This document shows, in pieces, positions 4,606 through 49,373 of a stretch of DNA of 64,000 bases. The translations under genes were made by a program, and so were the position numbers. The notes below the pieces were generated by a model. The model worked only from the letters and a program-made list of their open reading frames with translations. It had not been told where the DNA came from and ran no database searches. Source of the DNA: Eledone cirrhosa. Lineage: Eukaryota. Where the stretch lies: contig CAXHJY010000645.1 of NCBI GenBank assembly GCA_964016885.1, forward strand, positions 1 to 64,000, given 5' to 3'. Every line of letters starts with the position of its first letter. Positions within the stretch are counted from its first letter, which is position 1.

Positions 4606-4751
4606 GGAGAGTATAAAAGTTTTAATATAGATGAGATTCTACAGGACTAGAACTGTTTCATTCTTTAGAAATCATCAGGAATCTCTTATACTCTGCTATG
4701 TATTGAGTACCTTACTTACTGTGGTTACCTCCGATTCAACCCGGAATAACG
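4606..4751. mobile_element. Short PLE-derived element (family F1) between (TA)n tracts
   Basis: Homologous to 26129-26298; contains an HHR; TA runs on both sides. Confidence 0.7.
4633..4685 (-). ncRNA. Type I hammerhead ribozyme (F1)
   Basis: GAGATTC-CTGATGA-tTTCtaaaGAAt-GAAA-CAGttctagtcCTG-TA-GAATCTC. Confidence 0.8.
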
Positions 4752-5786
4752 TATATATATATATATATATATATATATATATAATACTAAACAAAGGATA
4801 GTTAGTTTAATATATATACATATCTATATATATATATATATCATTCTCTCTCTTTCTCTGTCTGTCTCTTTCTCTGTCTCTCTCTCTTTCCGTCTCCCCC
4901 CTCTCTCTCTCTCTCTAAAGGATAGTTACTTTAATATTTACATATCTATATATATATCATTCTCTCTCTCTCTCCGTGTCTCTCTTTCTCTCTTTCCGTC
5001 TTTCCCTCTCTCTCTCTCTTCCCCTCTCTCTCTCTTCCTCTCTTTCCCTCTATCTCTTCCTCTCTCTCTTTCTCTCTCTCTCTGTATGTATATATATATA
5101 TATATATATATATATATATATATGTATATCGTTCTCTCCCTTTCTTTGTCTCTCTCCTCTCCCTATCAATAGAATCCACACTGTAAAGTTGTTTGTCATT
5201 AAAGTGAAACATCACGTATGAACCGTCATCGTCACACCCGCTGCTCTCTCCCCCCCCTCTCTCTCTCTCACACACATTCTCTACCTAACATTCTCTCTTA
5301 CTATATCTCTCACACTCTCACACTCACACACACTCTCTCTTGCACTAGGTATGTGGGTAGATTGATAGATTGATAATGGATAGATAGGTGAAGGGGGATT
5401 GGTGGAATTAGAGATGGATCGATAGATAGATGGATAGAAAAATACACAGAAGGAGAATTACTTCTAAAAGCCGTTATCGTCACCTCCTCTGATTTTTTTG
5501 TTTGTCTCTCCGTCTTACATTCTTTCAATGAATAGATAGACGCGTGTATGTATATTGAATGTCAGGAGGCCGGACTGGTGAAATTCCTTCAAAGATATAT
5601 TTCAGCAAACACTATGTACAGTTCAGTGGCAAGGTTCCGTAAGATCCTGGTGAGATCATCAGGTGTTTATTGCATAATAGTTATATAATAAAGGAAAATG
5701 TTTTCGAAGGCGATCAATAAGGGCCAGTTGTCAGTTTGTTGTCAAATTTTATTTCACCTGACTCCGCTGACAAAAGATGCGAAGGC

Positions 5787-5932
5787 GCAGGCTTATGCCA
5801 TTCTATTTCAAGCTGAATCTCCCTGAGAACTACGTAAAGTGTAAGTGTGTCTGTGGAATGCACAGCCACGAGCATGTTGTCAATTTAATCGTATCAACAT
5901 GAAGATTCGTCGTCACAACCGACGGAGTGCCA
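5787..5932 (+). mobile_element. 3' fragment of an octopus-type SINE/LINE-tail repeat
   Basis: Ends CCGACGGAGTGCCA; the reverse-complement terminus recurs at 61342-61381. Confidence 0.55.
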
Positions 5933-6196
5933 TTGCTTTTGTCTTTTAACCCTTCCACTCAACATATACAAACTATTAATTTATGAAAACTTAAATTTCG
6001 TGGTTGGTTCGATGGATCTTATATGAATTAGTCCTGTAGGCTATAGACTTTAGTATTGACCAATCGGGTCTGCTAATATATGTGTGTATATATATATATA
6101 TATATATATATATATATATATATATATATATATATATATATATGTGAGTGTGTGTGTGTATGTGTATATATATATATATATATATATATATATATA

Positions 6197-6532
6197 TAAT
6201 ATAAGATCAAAAGCTTGTTAAAAGAGTTCCAAGTATTTTATTATGCGCATTTCAAAAACAAATATCATTTATAATCAACATATTTTGATTTAAAACTTCA
6301 CTATTCACAAGTGTTTTTTAAGCTTCATGTCATGTATCCCTTTTTTATCTGATGAGAACGCAGATATCATCCCATGATGATATTTGTTTTTGAAATGCGT
6401 ATAATAAAATACTTGGAACTCTTTTAACCATCTTTTGATCTTATATTATTTATACTTCAGTCCTACAAACTTTAGAGTGCTGCTTATCTGATATTTGCAT
6501 TGCTTTATTGTGCTACAATAAAACTCATCTCC
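6197..6532 (+). mobile_element. Fold-back PLE-derived element (F2)
   Basis: Inverted arms 6197-6268 / 6378-6448 plus an ~85-bp 3' tail; flanked by (TA)n; homolog at 30446-30710. Confidence 0.75.
6343..6409 (+). ncRNA. Minimal type I hammerhead ribozyme (F2)
   Basis: TTTTAT-CTGATGA-[16-bp stem II, loop CCAT]-GAAA-TGCGTA-TA-ATAAAA. Confidence 0.8.
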
Positions 6533-8640
6533 TATATATATATATTTATATATATATATATATATATGTGTGTGTATGTATGTGTATATATATGTGTGTG
6601 TGTGTGTGTGTATATATATATATGTGTGTATATATGTATATAATGTGTATATATATGTATGTGTATATATATGTATGTAAGTATATATATATATATAGTA
6701 TATATATATATATATGCATTTATATATTTATATATGTGTGTGTATGTATGTATATATATATATATATATATGTGTGTGTGTACTATATGTGTCTGTATGT
6801 ATGTATATATATGTATGTGTATATGTATATATATATATATGTGTATATGTATATAAGTATATGTATGTGTATATATATATATGTATATTTATGTGTGTGT
6901 GTATATATATATATATGTGTATGTATATGTGTATAATATATCTATGTGTGTATATATATATATATATATATGTGTGTGTATGTATATGTGTATAAGTATA
7001 TGTATGTGTGTGAATATATATATATATATGTGTATGTATATGTGTATAAGTACATGTATATGTATATGTATGTGTATATATATATGTACATGTGTATATG
7101 TAAATATATATATATATATATATATATATATATATATATATATATATATATATGTACGTATATATATTTATATGTATATATATGTACGTATATATATTTA
7201 TATGTATATATATGTACGTATATATATATATATATATGTACGTATATATATATATATATATATATATATATATATATATATGTACGTATATATATATACA
7301 TATATATATATATATATGTACGTATATATATATATATATCTATATATATATCTATATATATATATATATATATATATATATATATATATATATATATATA
7401 TATATATATATATATATATATATACACATATACATATATATATGTGTGCTTACCAAGGTAGTTAGTACAATTTCAGTTCATCTAGCTGAGGTGTTTTGGA
7501 ATATATTTCTGCTCAAATGTGTGTATTTGCGTTTAAGTATTACCTCACACACACACATATACATATATATATATATATCTATATATATATATATATATAT
7601 ATATATATATATCTATATATATATATATATATATATATATATATATATATATATATATATATATATAGTGTTGATATATACACAAATATATATATTATAT
7701 ATATTATTTATATTATACATATATTATATATATTATATATATAATATATGCATATATAATATATATGTATATATGTATTTATGATATATATATATATTAT
7801 ATATGTATATATATATACATATATAGTGTTGGTATATATATATATATATATATATATATATATAGTTTGTGAGTGTGTATGTGAGTATGTGTGTGTGTAT
7901 ATAATTCAAACAAGGAATTCAGCACACATATATACGCACATATTTTCAATATACACAGCAATACGATTCCTAGATCCAACTGTACAACTCTATATACTAA
8001 GGTTTGCTGGAGGCGTGACTGGAGCAGACTGTACCGAGATGATGCAGAGGTGGTGAGTTTAAGCTGATGCAGTAGATCCTGGCTATGAAGGTGATGGGGG
8101 TGAGCGAGGAAGTGGTATAACAAAGTATACTATAGAGGTTCCCCCGACAACCCAGCAACTTCAGGACACAACCCCGATCTTGTTCTGTGCCGAAAACGCC
8201 TCTTTTGAGTTGCCCGCCTTCATTTTTCCTGCTTTTTCCTGCTTTTTCTCCCCCCGATTGACGTTTCGCCCCCCAGCGAAATATTTGCTATGAAAGAATC
8301 GTTGCCTAACCACGCCATTATCATCACCATCATCACCATCACGATCACCACCACCATCATCATCATCATTGTAATGATGATAATCATCATCATTCTAATC
8401 ATCATCATCATCATCATCATCATCATCATCATTAATATCGTTGTCGTCGTCGTCGTAGCCATCGTCATCATTGCCATCATCATCATCATCGTCATCATCA
8501 TCATCATCATCGTAATCATCGTCAGCATTATCGTTATCGTCATCTGGTAACATTACATATGGTAACATTGTTTTATTTAAGAACCTTTAAGTTATGTTCC
8601 AAACACCTACACTGCCTTTCGTTAGAAATATGGTAACCAA

Positions 8641-8850
8641 AGGTGGATGGCAGTATCGGTAGAGCGTCTGACGCCATGCTTTGCAGCAAAGAGTTACGGC
8701 CCTTACCATTCTGAGTTCAAATCCCGCCGAGGTTAACTTTGCCTTTCATCCTTACGAGGTCGATAAAATAAAGTACCAGTAATGTACTGGGGTCGATTTA
8801 ATCGACTTTCCCCTTCCTCCAAATTACTGGCCTTGTGCCTATACTAGAGA
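8641..8850 (+). mobile_element. tRNA-derived SINE (copy 1 of a tandem trio)
   Basis: A-box-like TGGCAGTATCGG, B-box GAGTTCAAATCC, body AACTTTGCCTTTCATC..GTCGATAAAATAAAGTACCAG. Confidence 0.85.
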
Positions 8851-47856: not shown

Positions 47857-48233
47857 TTCTCATACTGGGATCTTCTCGGTGCACTGTCAATATATACTGT
47901 ATATATATATATTTAGCCTAAGAAAATATCTATATGCGTGTGTAATTTATACACGCATATATTTATTTTTTAAATTTCAATTGAGTTCTTAACACGTTGG
48001 ATTGATAATGTTTTCGAATAAACTGATTAACCCGCGTGTATATTATTTTTTTTCCTCCTTTCGTGGATCGTAGTTGTCTCCCCTTCCCGCTTAGTGACGC
48101 TATAACACTTCCTCAGTCAAAAGCTGCTGGAATTTCAAATTTGCCGGTCATTCGATGCGGGAAGGAGCAACTTAACGGACATGATTTTTAACCGTGGTAA
48201 GAAATGTTTTTCTCATATCAAGGTTTAATAGGC

Positions 48234-48358
48234 TTCCACTGATGATTTATAAACGCCCACCTAAATATATTCTTACATGAATGTATATTAGGCTTCTACA
48301 TAAACTGGAAATATTCTCCGAATTTGTAGAAAACTTATAATGAAACAATTGTTTGGAA
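48234..48358 (+). ncRNA. Type I hammerhead ribozyme with a long stem II insert (F7)
   Basis: TTCCA-CTGATGA-tTTATAA...TTATAAt-GAAA-CAATTG-TT-TGGAA. Confidence 0.7.
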
Positions 48359-49024
48359 AGAGAGATATATTTTAACTTTAATTATATCTCATAAAATAAT
48401 ACAACTGGCTTTTCCACATAATACATATTGTTAGCACCCCAAACACTTAAATTGGGTTTATATTAAAATATAACCTAATGTTTGTTGAGTGAGATGGTTA
48501 CCAGTCAGAGATTAGCTTTAAACTATCTCTGTTATTGTATTAATATATATATATATATATATATATATAGGGGGGTTCTCCTACATGAATATAAATTAGT
48601 GGCCGTACTCGAAAACGAGTTGGCAGCCACCATATATATATATATACTGGGATCTTGTCGGTCCACTGTCATCCAATAGAGCTTTTTTTCTTGTGGAGTG
48701 AGAGACCCCTAGTCTTCATTAAACATCTCTCTAGGAGAAGATCACTCTCTATATAAAATTTGTGACTTCGTTTGTATCCAATGATGTACACCAGTTGTTT
48801 TGGGACAAATGCATCCGATGTTCAGAGAGTAGGATTGGCAAAGACTTTCTTCACTTAAAAATAAACTCAAGCACAGGCATCATTTGATGTGAGTTTTTTC
48901 GCAATGCATGGTATTGCTGGCCATAGGCAAGTCCCTAGCTGGACTAAAAAGCCACGTCCGTGATGCTCATGTTTAAGTATCAAGCGATGGCATAACTCGA
49001 AATCGAATTGCAGACATTATATAT

Positions 49025-49143
49025 ATCTGAGTTCAAATCCTGCCGAGGTTAACTTTGCCTTTCATCCTTACGGTGTCGATAAAATAAAGTACCAGTAATG
49101 TACTGGGTAATTGCTGGCCTTGTGCCTAAAATAGAAACAATTA
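49025..49143 (+). mobile_element. 5'-truncated tRNA-SINE
   Basis: B-box to tail, same family as 8641-9237. Confidence 0.85.
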
Positions 49144-49171
49144 TATATATATATATATATATATATATATA

Positions 49172-49373
49172 TAAGAAAAGAGTTAGGTCTTCGACGGCTG
49201 AGCTCCGGCCGTTTTGACGGCTAGATTCGAACTGATCCGGACCTAGCTGTCGAAACGGCCGGAGCTCAACCGTCGGGGTCCTGACTCTTTTCCTATTACC
49301 CACTCTACTACCCTAAGTATTGAGTACTCTGGTGCGTTATGGTCCACCTGGTTCCTTACCACACTTTCTTTGT
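49172..49373 (+). mobile_element. Hairpin-plus-tail element (F9), opposite orientation
   Basis: Reverse complement of the 22257-type element. Confidence 0.7.

What the first reader, a model, noticed from the sequence alone, without database searches (positions are those of the whole stretch)
4688..49328. Shared stem-loop (RCTY...GAGY) in the 3' tails of otherwise unrelated fold-back families
Seen: the single-copy tails carry GAGTRC/GAGCAC about 40-60 nt from the (TA)n junction at 4705, 6475, 12594, 26251, 45200, 49322 and (reverse) 30506. Each + strand example is preceded by a complement: TACTC/GAGTA (4689), TACTC/GAGTG (12577), ACTC/GAGT (49302) and covaried GCTC/GAGC (45183). Inference: a conserved cis-signal for RT recognition, priming or 3' end formation, shared by five families. 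I do not know of it being described.
Basis: partly seen in the sequence, partly recalled or inferred. Interest (0 to 1): 0.7.

Follow-up and report, generated by a model that had tools for sequence, protein, structure and literature searches.

The report
Penelope tail hairpin marks copying start
Short fold-back insertions in this window that are likely remnants of Hydra-clade Penelope retrotransposons share a small predicted bulged RNA hairpin, also seen in published coral and sea-cucumber elements, which likely tells the reverse transcriptase where to start copying.

Summary
Twelve copies in five families carry the motif; the eleven with a full tail have it 41-69 nt from (TA)n. It is seen in 14 of 78 (TA)n flanks against 0.46 in shuffles. 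The structure is better defined than RCTY...GAGY: a 4-bp RCUC/GAGY stem, a 2-nt 3' bulge, an upper stem whose pairs change between families (33 of 36 pairs canonical), then RC. Four families hold type I hammerheads upstream and the fifth a half one, so these are Penelope-like 3' ends. The same hairpin lies 38-48 nt after the hammerhead cut in 3 of 6 published Hydra-clade consensi, with variants in 2 more. In 9 of 11 fold-backs the inverted arm ends 5-8 nt 5' of the stem, where the second reverse-transcription start should lie by analogy with Frangieh 2024. Best reading (0.6): an RNA site bound by the RT-endonuclease that sets that start. Function is untested, one fold-back lacks the motif, and the families are probably one clade rather than unrelated. 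I found no description in eight literature searches.

The parts
4606..4751 (+). Family A copy A1: inverted arm with hammerhead, short forward part and tail, between (TA)n runs
4633..4685 (-). Type I hammerhead in the inverted arm of A1 (stem I 7 bp; first base after the cut at 4639)
4690..4710 (+). Bulged hairpin A1 (ACUC/GAGU, 3-bp upper stem, UU bulge, then AC)
6199..6532 (+). Family B copy B1: fold-back plus tail
6343..6409 (+). Type I hammerhead in B1; cut 50 nt 5' of the hairpin
6454..6480 (+). Bulged hairpin B1 (degenerate: G-U in the lower stem, one upper pair broken)
12202..12661 (+). Family C copy C1: 350-nt fold-back plus tail
12244..12309 (-). Type I hammerhead in the inverted arm of C1 (the forward-arm copy at 12471 has GAAT for GAAA)
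12578..12599 (+). Bulged hairpin C1
21442..21575 (-). Family E copy E2: fold-back plus tail
21488..21513 (-).
21592..22014 (+). F1: fold-back plus 93-nt tail made from a piece of RT coding sequence with Hydra-clade relatives; lacks the hairpin (counter-example)
22057..22207 (-). Family D copy D2: fold-back plus tail
22093..22115 (-).
22258..22443 (-). Family E copy E3: fold-back plus tail
22300..22325 (-).
25823..25843 (+). Family A fragment A3: hairpin with GTGT for GAGT; tail cut short by (CA)n; no fold-back
26108..26298 (+). Family A copy A2: fold-back plus tail
26132..26184 (-). Type I hammerhead in the inverted arm of A2; stems I and II differ from A1 but still pair
26236..26256 (+). Bulged hairpin A2 (G-U in the lower stem)
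30443..30710 (-). Family B copy B2: fold-back plus tail; the CUGAUGA core (30612, +) is only in the inverted arm
30507..30533 (-). Bulged hairpin B2 (4-bp upper stem, UU bulge)
44803..44937 (-). Family E copy E4: fold-back plus tail
44849..44874 (-).
44978..45249 (+). Family D copy D1: 199-nt fold-back with a hammerhead in each arm, plus tail
45088..45147 (+). Type I hammerhead in the forward arm of D1; cut 42 nt 5' of the hairpin
45183..45205 (+). Hairpin D1 (GCUC/GAGC; the compensatory partner of ACUC/GAGU)
49174..49373 (+). Family E copy E1: fold-back plus tail
49216..49280 (+). 3' half of a hammerhead-like fold in E1 (stem II, GAAA, stem III, GUC); no CUGANGA; parsed by eye
49302..49327 (+). 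Bulged hairpin E1 (4-bp upper stem, UU bulge)
61634..61739 (-). Family C copy C2: stand-alone copy with a hammerhead that ends at (TA)n 49 nt after the cut, the same point as the inverted arm of C1 (50 nt); no hairpin or tail

Best explanation
The motif is a predicted bulged RNA stem-loop, found downstream of the hammerhead in short Penelope-like insertions that are likely of the Hydra clade, and it likely binds the element's RT-endonuclease and sets an internal start of reverse transcription 5-8 nt on its 5' side. Steps. (1) Shown: each element is an inverted arm, a forward arm and a single-copy tail inside (TA)n, with the hairpin at the start of the tail. (2) Shown as sequence, predicted as structure: RCUC/GAGY stem, 2-nt 3' bulge, upper stem of free sequence, then RC. 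(3) From the literature on another clade: the Penelope tail is the stretch between two internal RT start sites. (4) Inferred: the protein binds the hairpin in RNA read through the hammerhead region, nicks (TA)n, and one DNA end primes at the UA-rich tract just 5' of the stem while the other primes 41-69 nt 3' of GAGY. (5) Inferred: two short cDNAs joined head to head give the fold-back, and only the copy primed downstream holds the hairpin.
For: Structure: lower stem canonical in 47 of 48 pair cells, with A-U in 10 copies and G-C in 2 at the first pair. With a 2-nt bulge 33 of 36 upper-stem cells pair, against 18, 4 and 1 of 36 for bulges of 0, 1 and 3 nt; all three upper positions change pair type between families. 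Hammerheads: complete in A, B, C and D, half in E; cut 27-57 nt 5' of the stem. Position: the last non-target base of the inverted arm maps 5-8 nt 5' of the stem in B1, B2, C1, D1, E1-E4 and, read by eye past a (CA)n run, D2: 9 of 11. Independent priming: in A1, A2 and B2 the CUGAUGA core is in the inverted arm only, and C2 ends at the same point with no tail. Out of sample, read by eye: Hydra-2_Amil, Hydra-2_Ajap and Hydra-1_Ajap fit the strict descriptor, each with a different 4-5-bp upper stem, 38-48 nt after the hammerhead cut (for Hydra-1_Ajap counted across the join of its two ends). Hydra-1_Crog has a variant. Only 1 of 26 candidate 8-mers in the Naiad and Chlamys files fits, about 500 nt from that consensus end. 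Full-length relatives of the F1 peptide carry RWK/RWR, DKT/DKS, YRDD and CxCx5C, named as Hydra-clade marks in PMC8557442 section 11. PMC11167929 maps two internal RT starts that bound the tail.
Against: No binding or priming experiment exists here. F1 (21592-22014) is a fold-back with a tail and has no hairpin. In A1 the inverted arm runs into the 5' strand of the stem, and in A2 it ends about 16 nt upstream behind a (TC)n run (read by eye). Hydra-1_Obim shows no hairpin at either end and Hydra-1_Amil only an unbulged, degenerate one 10 nt after the cut. The hairpins are weak alone: -1.5 to -10 kcal/mol, z from +0.3 to -4.9, and the lowest-energy folds of A1, A2, D1 and D2 do not show the bulge. 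Covariation rests on five families, of which A/E and B/C look related. [quoted passage not shown] Families A-E have no ORF in the window, so their clade is inferred.
Confidence: 0.6

Rival explanations
1. The hairpin is a real RNA element of the 5' untranslated region of the next unit in the tandem transcript. It serves translation control, RNP assembly or hammerhead folding, and RT starts nearby only because of the UA-rich tract that can pair with nicked (TA)n.
For: In Hydra-1_Ajap the hairpin opens the consensus, occurs twice, and lies within about 115 nt of the first ATG. A UAU or similar tract lies 0-8 nt 5' of the stem in most copies and could fix the arm end alone. F1 shows that fold-backs form without the hairpin.
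Against: The families are AU-rich and hold other UA tracts between the cut and the stem, yet 9 of 11 arm ends and C2 use the one next to the stem. In PAc the protein-binding RNA region and the RT starts lie in the same 172 nt.
Confidence: 0.2
2. The signal is read in DNA. The GIY-YIG endonuclease, or a dimer of the protein, recognises the near-palindromic GAGYRCTY or a single-stranded DNA hairpin in an earlier copy and cuts beside it, so inverted arms are separate insertions into the element's own end.
For: PMC11167929 reports that the D. virilis tail was needed for endonuclease recognition and that PAc can cut its own pLTR. E1 and E3 hold a perfect 8-bp palindrome at the 3' strand. The bulged fold is also the predicted DNA fold for B2, E1 and D2.
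Against: The upper stem changes sequence while keeping pairs, several pairs are G-U, and the bulge is on one side only; a double-stranded site does not need these. DNA folds are about half as stable (-1.6 to -3.2 against -3.6 to -8.0 kcal/mol). Every inverted arm has its outer end in the flanking repeat, not inside the old copy.
Confidence: 0.1
3. One cDNA primed at the tail end folds back and copies itself; the hairpin stops that second pass, and the end joins (TA)n by microhomology. The hairpin is then a stop signal, not a start signal.
For: One continuous strand of this kind fits the geometry. Several fold-back apices lie in self-complementary hammerhead stems (read by eye).
Against: In A1, A2 and B2 the inverted arm holds sequence that the forward arm lacks, so it cannot be a copy of it unless the forward arm was deleted later. 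C2 ends at the same point without any forward arm.
Confidence: 0.06
4. The motif is a neutral leftover of common descent, a chance pattern, or the 3' hairpin of a rolling-circle or miniature DNA transposon.
For: The motif was defined post hoc on these tails, the loose form is common (64 hits), and n is five families.
Against: Flanks have lost similarity between families while the hairpin keeps it. The same architecture recurs in coral and sea-cucumber consensi with different upper stems. Hammerheads sit upstream, and the ends do not read CTRR (that Helitron end is recalled).
Confidence: 0.04

Closest known systems
Hydra clade of C-terminal-EN Penelope-like elements (Craig et al. 2021, PMC8557442)
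   Same: (TA)n targets, type I hammerhead near the 3' end, and the same bulged hairpin about 40-50 nt after the cut in three of their six new consensi; the F1 peptide has full-length relatives with the clade's motifs.
   Different: The paper's main text and supplement text do not mention a hairpin, stem-loop or (supplement) bulge. The window's copies are 130-460-nt remnants without an ORF, with tails of about 60-90 nt rather than 30-40.
PAc, Poseidon element of Anolis carolinensis (Frangieh et al. 2024, PMC11167929)
   Same: Internal RT starts downstream of a hammerhead; the tail is the stretch between two starts; a stem-loop is involved.
   Different: Here the conserved stem lies just 3' of the inferred start, and a UA tract matches the (TA)n target.
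Naiad Penelope-like elements (PMC8557442)
   Same: (TA)n preference, inverted 5'-truncated copies and tails; present in cephalopods.
   Different: Naiads lack canonical hammerheads, and only one candidate 8-mer in the Naiad file (Naiad_Mmer) fits the descriptor, far from the end.
3' stem-loops of stringent LINEs and their SINEs; hepadnaviral epsilon (both recalled, from no call)
   Same: A small structured RNA element that recruits its own RT and fixes where copying begins; epsilon is also bulged.
   Different: The LINE signals lie at the RNA 3' end and epsilon templates protein priming. No sequence or structural homology was tested; these are analogies only.
Metazoan non-LTR retrozymes (PMC7761336; bioRxiv 10.64898/2026.07.22.740005)
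   Same: Short non-coding hammerhead units thought to be moved by Penelope proteins.
   Different: Retrozymes are head-to-tail tandems, not fold-backs. PMC7761336 states that they show no conserved motif pointing to their partner. Whether they carry this hairpin could not be checked.

Membership tests
Penelope-like elements (families A-E) | Type I hammerhead in the terminal repeat region, on the sense strand upstream of the 3' end | tested here: met
   Complete in A, B, C and D; only the 3' half in E (by eye)
Penelope-like elements (families A-E) | Inverted 5'-truncated copy joined to a forward copy, with a single-copy tail | tested here: met
   11 of 11 elements examined; tails of about 60-90 nt, longer than the 30-40 nt in PMC8557442
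Penelope-like elements (families A-E) | Single ORF with telomerase-like RT and GIY-YIG endonuclease | not testable with these tools
   No ORF in these remnants; tblastn with the long hits found only F1 in the window; no eukaryotic genome collection was open
Hydra clade (families A-E) | Insertion into (TA)n | tested here: met
   All 11 lie between (TA)n runs, with a short (CA)n or (GA)n stretch between in two
Hydra clade (families A-E) | Canonical hammerhead present (absent from Naiads) | tested here: met
   against File S2 of PMC8557442
Hydra clade (families A-E) | Protein marks: RWK, DKT, CxCx5C linker, C-terminal EN without CCHH | not testable with these tools
   No coding sequence in A-E; the assignment rests on the shared hairpin and architecture
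Hydra clade (fragment F1) | Protein marks: RWK, DKT, CxCx5C linker, C-terminal EN | tested here: inconclusive
   The 72-aa piece holds none of these itself. Of 7 relatives inspected (of 118 hits): RWK/RWR 5, DKT/DKS 7, YRDD 6, CxCx5C 4; Pfam GIY-YIG near the C terminus in 1 of 7, below the cut-off. Absence of CCHH was not checked.
Naiad clade | No canonical hammerhead | tested here: not met
   Complete hammerheads in 4 of 5 families
Non-LTR retrozymes | Head-to-tail tandem units, each with a hammerhead | tested here: not met
   Elements are head-to-head fold-backs
Helitron-type non-autonomous elements | CTRR 3' end behind a sub-terminal hairpin (recalled) | tested here: not met
   Tail ends printed do not read CTRR; the hairpin is 41-69 nt from the end
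Rfam RNA families | Match at a family's gathering score | tested here: inconclusive
   None of the 150 listed matches (of 309) reaches its gathering score; they are mostly microsatellite-driven miRNA hits. The other 159 were not shown.

The most novel reading that the evidence does not exclude
Hydra-clade Penelope RNA carries two tandem copies of this hairpin, and the protein, possibly as a dimer, starts reverse transcription 5-8 nt 5' of each copy, one for each end of the cut (TA)n target. The Penelope tail is then simply the spacer between two binding sites: it holds copy 1 and stops just before copy 2. Hydra-1_Ajap has two copies about 61 nt apart with different upper stems that both pair, and Hydra-1_Crog has a variant near each end of its consensus, the second 6 nt from the start. 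The hairpin would also be the missing tag by which these proteins pick non-autonomous RNAs such as retrozymes.
Probability: 0.3. Interest if true: 0.8.

Novelty: new variant of a known kind. Interest (0 to 1): 0.62.

Why it matters
How Penelope-like elements choose their RNA and why they leave inverted copies with a single-copy tail is named as open in PMC8557442 (section 15), and PMC11167929 located the RT starts for one element without defining a signal. A 20-27-nt element with a defined stem, bulge and spacing, conserved from this genome to corals and sea cucumbers, gives a specific mutation-and-rescue test and a prediction for where copying starts. It would also let annotators recognise and orient ORF-less Hydra-clade remnants, which are dense in this window, and test whether retrozymes use the same tag. 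If an internal hairpin is enough to direct insertion into (TA)n, it bears on using these short elements as RNA-templated insertion tools.

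Tried and rejected
Rfam scan: no hammerhead or other relevant family among the 150 of 309 matches shown; hammerheads were found with my own descriptor. Pfam, the word-index protein search and the Atlas gave nothing usable for the F1 peptide; only the exhaustive phmmer search did. My first recollection that the F1 motif was Naiad-type was wrong: the matches shown in the supplement are Hydra proteins. MAFFT misaligned families E or B, so RNAalifold recovered only the lower stem (2 of 5 pairs with a double change) and no covariance model was built; pair counts come from an alignment anchored on the motif, which favours the lower stem. 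A second hairpin near the (TA)n junction is visible by eye but not significant (z +0.9 to -1.8 in 11 tails), so it is not claimed. The automatic arm-end mapping failed for A2 and E2 and for A1, A2 and D2; these were read by eye. A relaxed structural descriptor gives 35 hits in the window and is not specific; it was used only on controls, where 0 of 10 regions matched against 12 of 12 hairpins. A splice-donor or SECIS reading was considered from recalled consensus and dropped because the motif fits neither. Supplements of PMC7229834 could not be read, those of PMC11167929 gave no text hits and its figures are not held, and bioRxiv supplements are closed; any of them could show the hairpin. The 21 Repbase Hydra families are not in the supplement read. 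No eukaryotic genome, viral or metagenome contig collection was available, so no further copies were collected.

Full report
Setting. Half of the window is simple repeat (32,049 of 64,000 bases masked). Between (TA)n runs lie short islands, eleven of which are fold-backs with a single-copy tail in five families: A (4606, 26108), B (6199, 30443 -), C (12202), D (44978, 22057 -) and E (49174, 21442 -, 22258 -, 44803 -). The host looks like a microsatellite-rich invertebrate; a cephalopod is my recollection from its SINE and was not tested.

Observation. All seven hexamers and the four named partners are present. Distances from GAGY to (TA)n are 41-69 nt over the eleven tails. Four further copies and one variant (25838) were found. 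The loose motif is common (64 hits; 17 of 78 flanks against a shuffle mean of 5.2, maximum 13). Adding the RC that follows gives 13 hits in the window, 11 of them these tails, and 14 of 78 flanks (11 tails, 2 counted twice, 1 antisense hit) against 0.46, maximum 3. The bulged descriptor gives 10 of 78 against 0.02. With one copy per family, the shuffle probability of the RC-extended motif is 0.003-0.018 each. These tests are post hoc.

Structure. Anchored on the motif, the lower stem pairs in 47 of 48 cells, with A-U in ten copies and G-C in the two D copies at the first pair. A 2-nt bulge (UU in 9, UA in 3) gives 33 of 36 canonical cells for the next three pairs, against 18, 4 and 1 for bulges of 0, 1 and 3 nt. 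Upper pair 1 is U-A or C-G, pair 2 is A-U, G-U or G-C, and pair 3 is C-G, G-C or U-A, by family. Between families the 26 nt upstream and 30 nt downstream score z at most 1.9, while the hairpin reaches 3.0-5.6 in 4 of 10 pairs. The hairpins are thermodynamically weak, and four lowest-energy folds lack the bulge, so a protein-stabilised fold is inferred.

What the elements are. A type I hammerhead descriptor gave nine hits in the window: seven in families A-D and one each in two other families. A1 and A2 differ in stems I and II yet keep pairing. Family E holds only the 3' half, by eye. The cut lies 27-57 nt 5' of the stem in the five copies measured. PMC8557442 describes inverted 5'-truncated copies with a single-copy tail as typical of Penelope-like elements, (TA)n insertion and canonical hammerheads for the Hydra clade, and no canonical hammerheads for Naiads. 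A twelfth fold-back, F1, encodes a 72-residue open piece with 118 relatives (best E 6e-23). Seven of these were inspected and carry most Hydra-clade marks. Hydra-clade elements therefore probably made fold-backs in this genome, though A-E have no ORF and their clade is inferred.

Out-of-sample test. I read all six Hydra consensi in File S7 and the hammerhead table by eye. Three fit the strict descriptor: Hydra-2_Amil (5-bp upper stem, UU bulge, 32 nt from GAGC to the end), Hydra-2_Ajap (4 bp, UA, 31 nt) and Hydra-1_Ajap (5 bp, UA, at base 3 of the consensus). Hydra-1_Ajap has a second copy about 61 nt further on, with a different upper stem and a UC bulge. Hydra-1_Crog has a variant 49 nt from its end and a looser one 6 nt from its start. 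Hydra-1_Amil has a degenerate unbulged form. Hydra-1_Obim has none; its consensus ends about 40 nt after the cut, so it may stop short of the site. All eight TWGAGYRC 8-mers were searched in the whole supplement: 29 hits, 3 of 3 in the Hydra file fit, and 1 of 26 in the Naiad and Chlamys files, in Naiad_Mmer about 500 nt from the end. The search reads one strand and misses motifs split across lines.

Position. The fixed distance is to the inverted arm, not to the 3' end. The last non-target base of the arm maps 5-8 nt 5' of the stem in 9 of 11 copies (D2 by eye), and the next forward bases begin to match the (TA)n target; A1 and A2 are exceptions. C2 at 61634-61739 is a tail-less copy ending at the same point as the C1 arm (49 against 50 nt after the cut). 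In A1, A2 and B2 the hammerhead core is only in the inverted arm, which argues against snap-back copying and for two separately primed cDNAs. [quoted passage not shown]

Mechanism. Most likely (0.6) the RT-endonuclease binds the hairpin in RNA, and one end of the nicked (TA)n primes at the UA tract just 5' of it while the other primes at the tail end. Shown: sequence, spacing, conservation. Predicted: the fold. Inferred: binding, priming and joining. Against: F1 is a fold-back with a tail and no hairpin; families I, J and G, which have hammerheads or cores but no tailed fold-back, lack it (0 of 10 control regions); and the PAc geometry differs. Rivals are a 5'-UTR or translation element (0.2), a DNA-level site (0.1), a stop signal for snap-back synthesis (0.06) and a neutral or chance pattern (0.04).

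Literature seen. PMC11167929: parts 1-2 of 4 (all results, start of methods), passages, and supplement text search without hits. PMC8557442: outline, passages, sections 11, 15 and 20, supplement parts 1, 2, 23, 52 and 53 of 59, and three supplement searches. bioRxiv 10.64898/2026.07.22.740005: part 1 of 5 and passages. PMC7761336 and PMC4209133: passages. PMC7229834: listing only. Eight searches returned no paper that I saw describing a conserved tail hairpin. The library lacks most subscription papers and Repbase reports, and figures were not visible, so absence from print is not established.

Verdict. A real, conserved and apparently undescribed structured element of Hydra-clade-like Penelope 3' ends, placed where an RT start is expected. 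It is a new variant of a known kind of signal. Interest 0.62; the two-hairpin reading has probability 0.3 and would deserve 0.8.

Noticed in passing
window 35967-44632: About six tandem units of 1.3-1.6 kb, each with a copy of the SINE-like repeat also found as three tandem copies at 8642-9242 and as fragments at 19889 and 49002-49141, and with an internal 26-nt minisatellite.
   Followed up: no
window 21442-22443; 44803-45249; 26108-26400: Fold-back elements cluster, separated only by (TA)n: E2, F1, D2 and E3 in 1 kb; E4 beside D1; A2 beside an E-like arm at 26311. This suggests repeated insertion into the same microsatellite.
   Followed up: partly
window 13269-12761 (-); 47899-47659 (-): Family I: a hammerhead with a long stem II (core 13105) and a splice-donor-like GTGAGT 12 nt after the cut, ending at (TA)n; no fold-back and no bulged hairpin. 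Probably another Penelope clade.
   Followed up: partly
window 15426-15720, 58110-58400, 60490-60730 (all -): Family J: three copies ending at or near (TA)n, with hammerhead-like cores (15656, 58350) and a GTGAGT about 65 nt from the end; no hairpin.
   Followed up: partly
window 61442-61575 (+); 47555-47628: Family G: a minimal hammerhead with a palindromic 4-nt stem III. The near-perfect 74-nt palindrome at 47555 shares about 20 nt with it, but with the opposite polarity to families A-E and no tail.
   Followed up: no
window 48570-48632: A 63-nt island between (TA)n runs with a perfect 5-bp hairpin that includes ACTC/GAGT around a 4-nt loop, about 15 nt from the junction; it does not fit the bulged descriptor.
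   Followed up: partly
window, all 12 hairpins: The four bases after GAGY often repeat the 5' strand (RCTY), making GAGYRCTY near-palindromic; the antisense strand can therefore form a similar stem (hit at 44871).
   Followed up: partly
window 16149-16720; 59367-60443: A 71-nt minisatellite (8.1 copies, 98% matches) and a second complex minisatellite of about 1.1 kb.
   Followed up: no
PMC8557442 File S7, Hydra-1_Ajap and Hydra-1_Crog: Two of the three complete consensi hold two related copies of the hairpin; in Hydra-1_Ajap the two upper stems differ wholly in sequence and both pair.
   Followed up: partly
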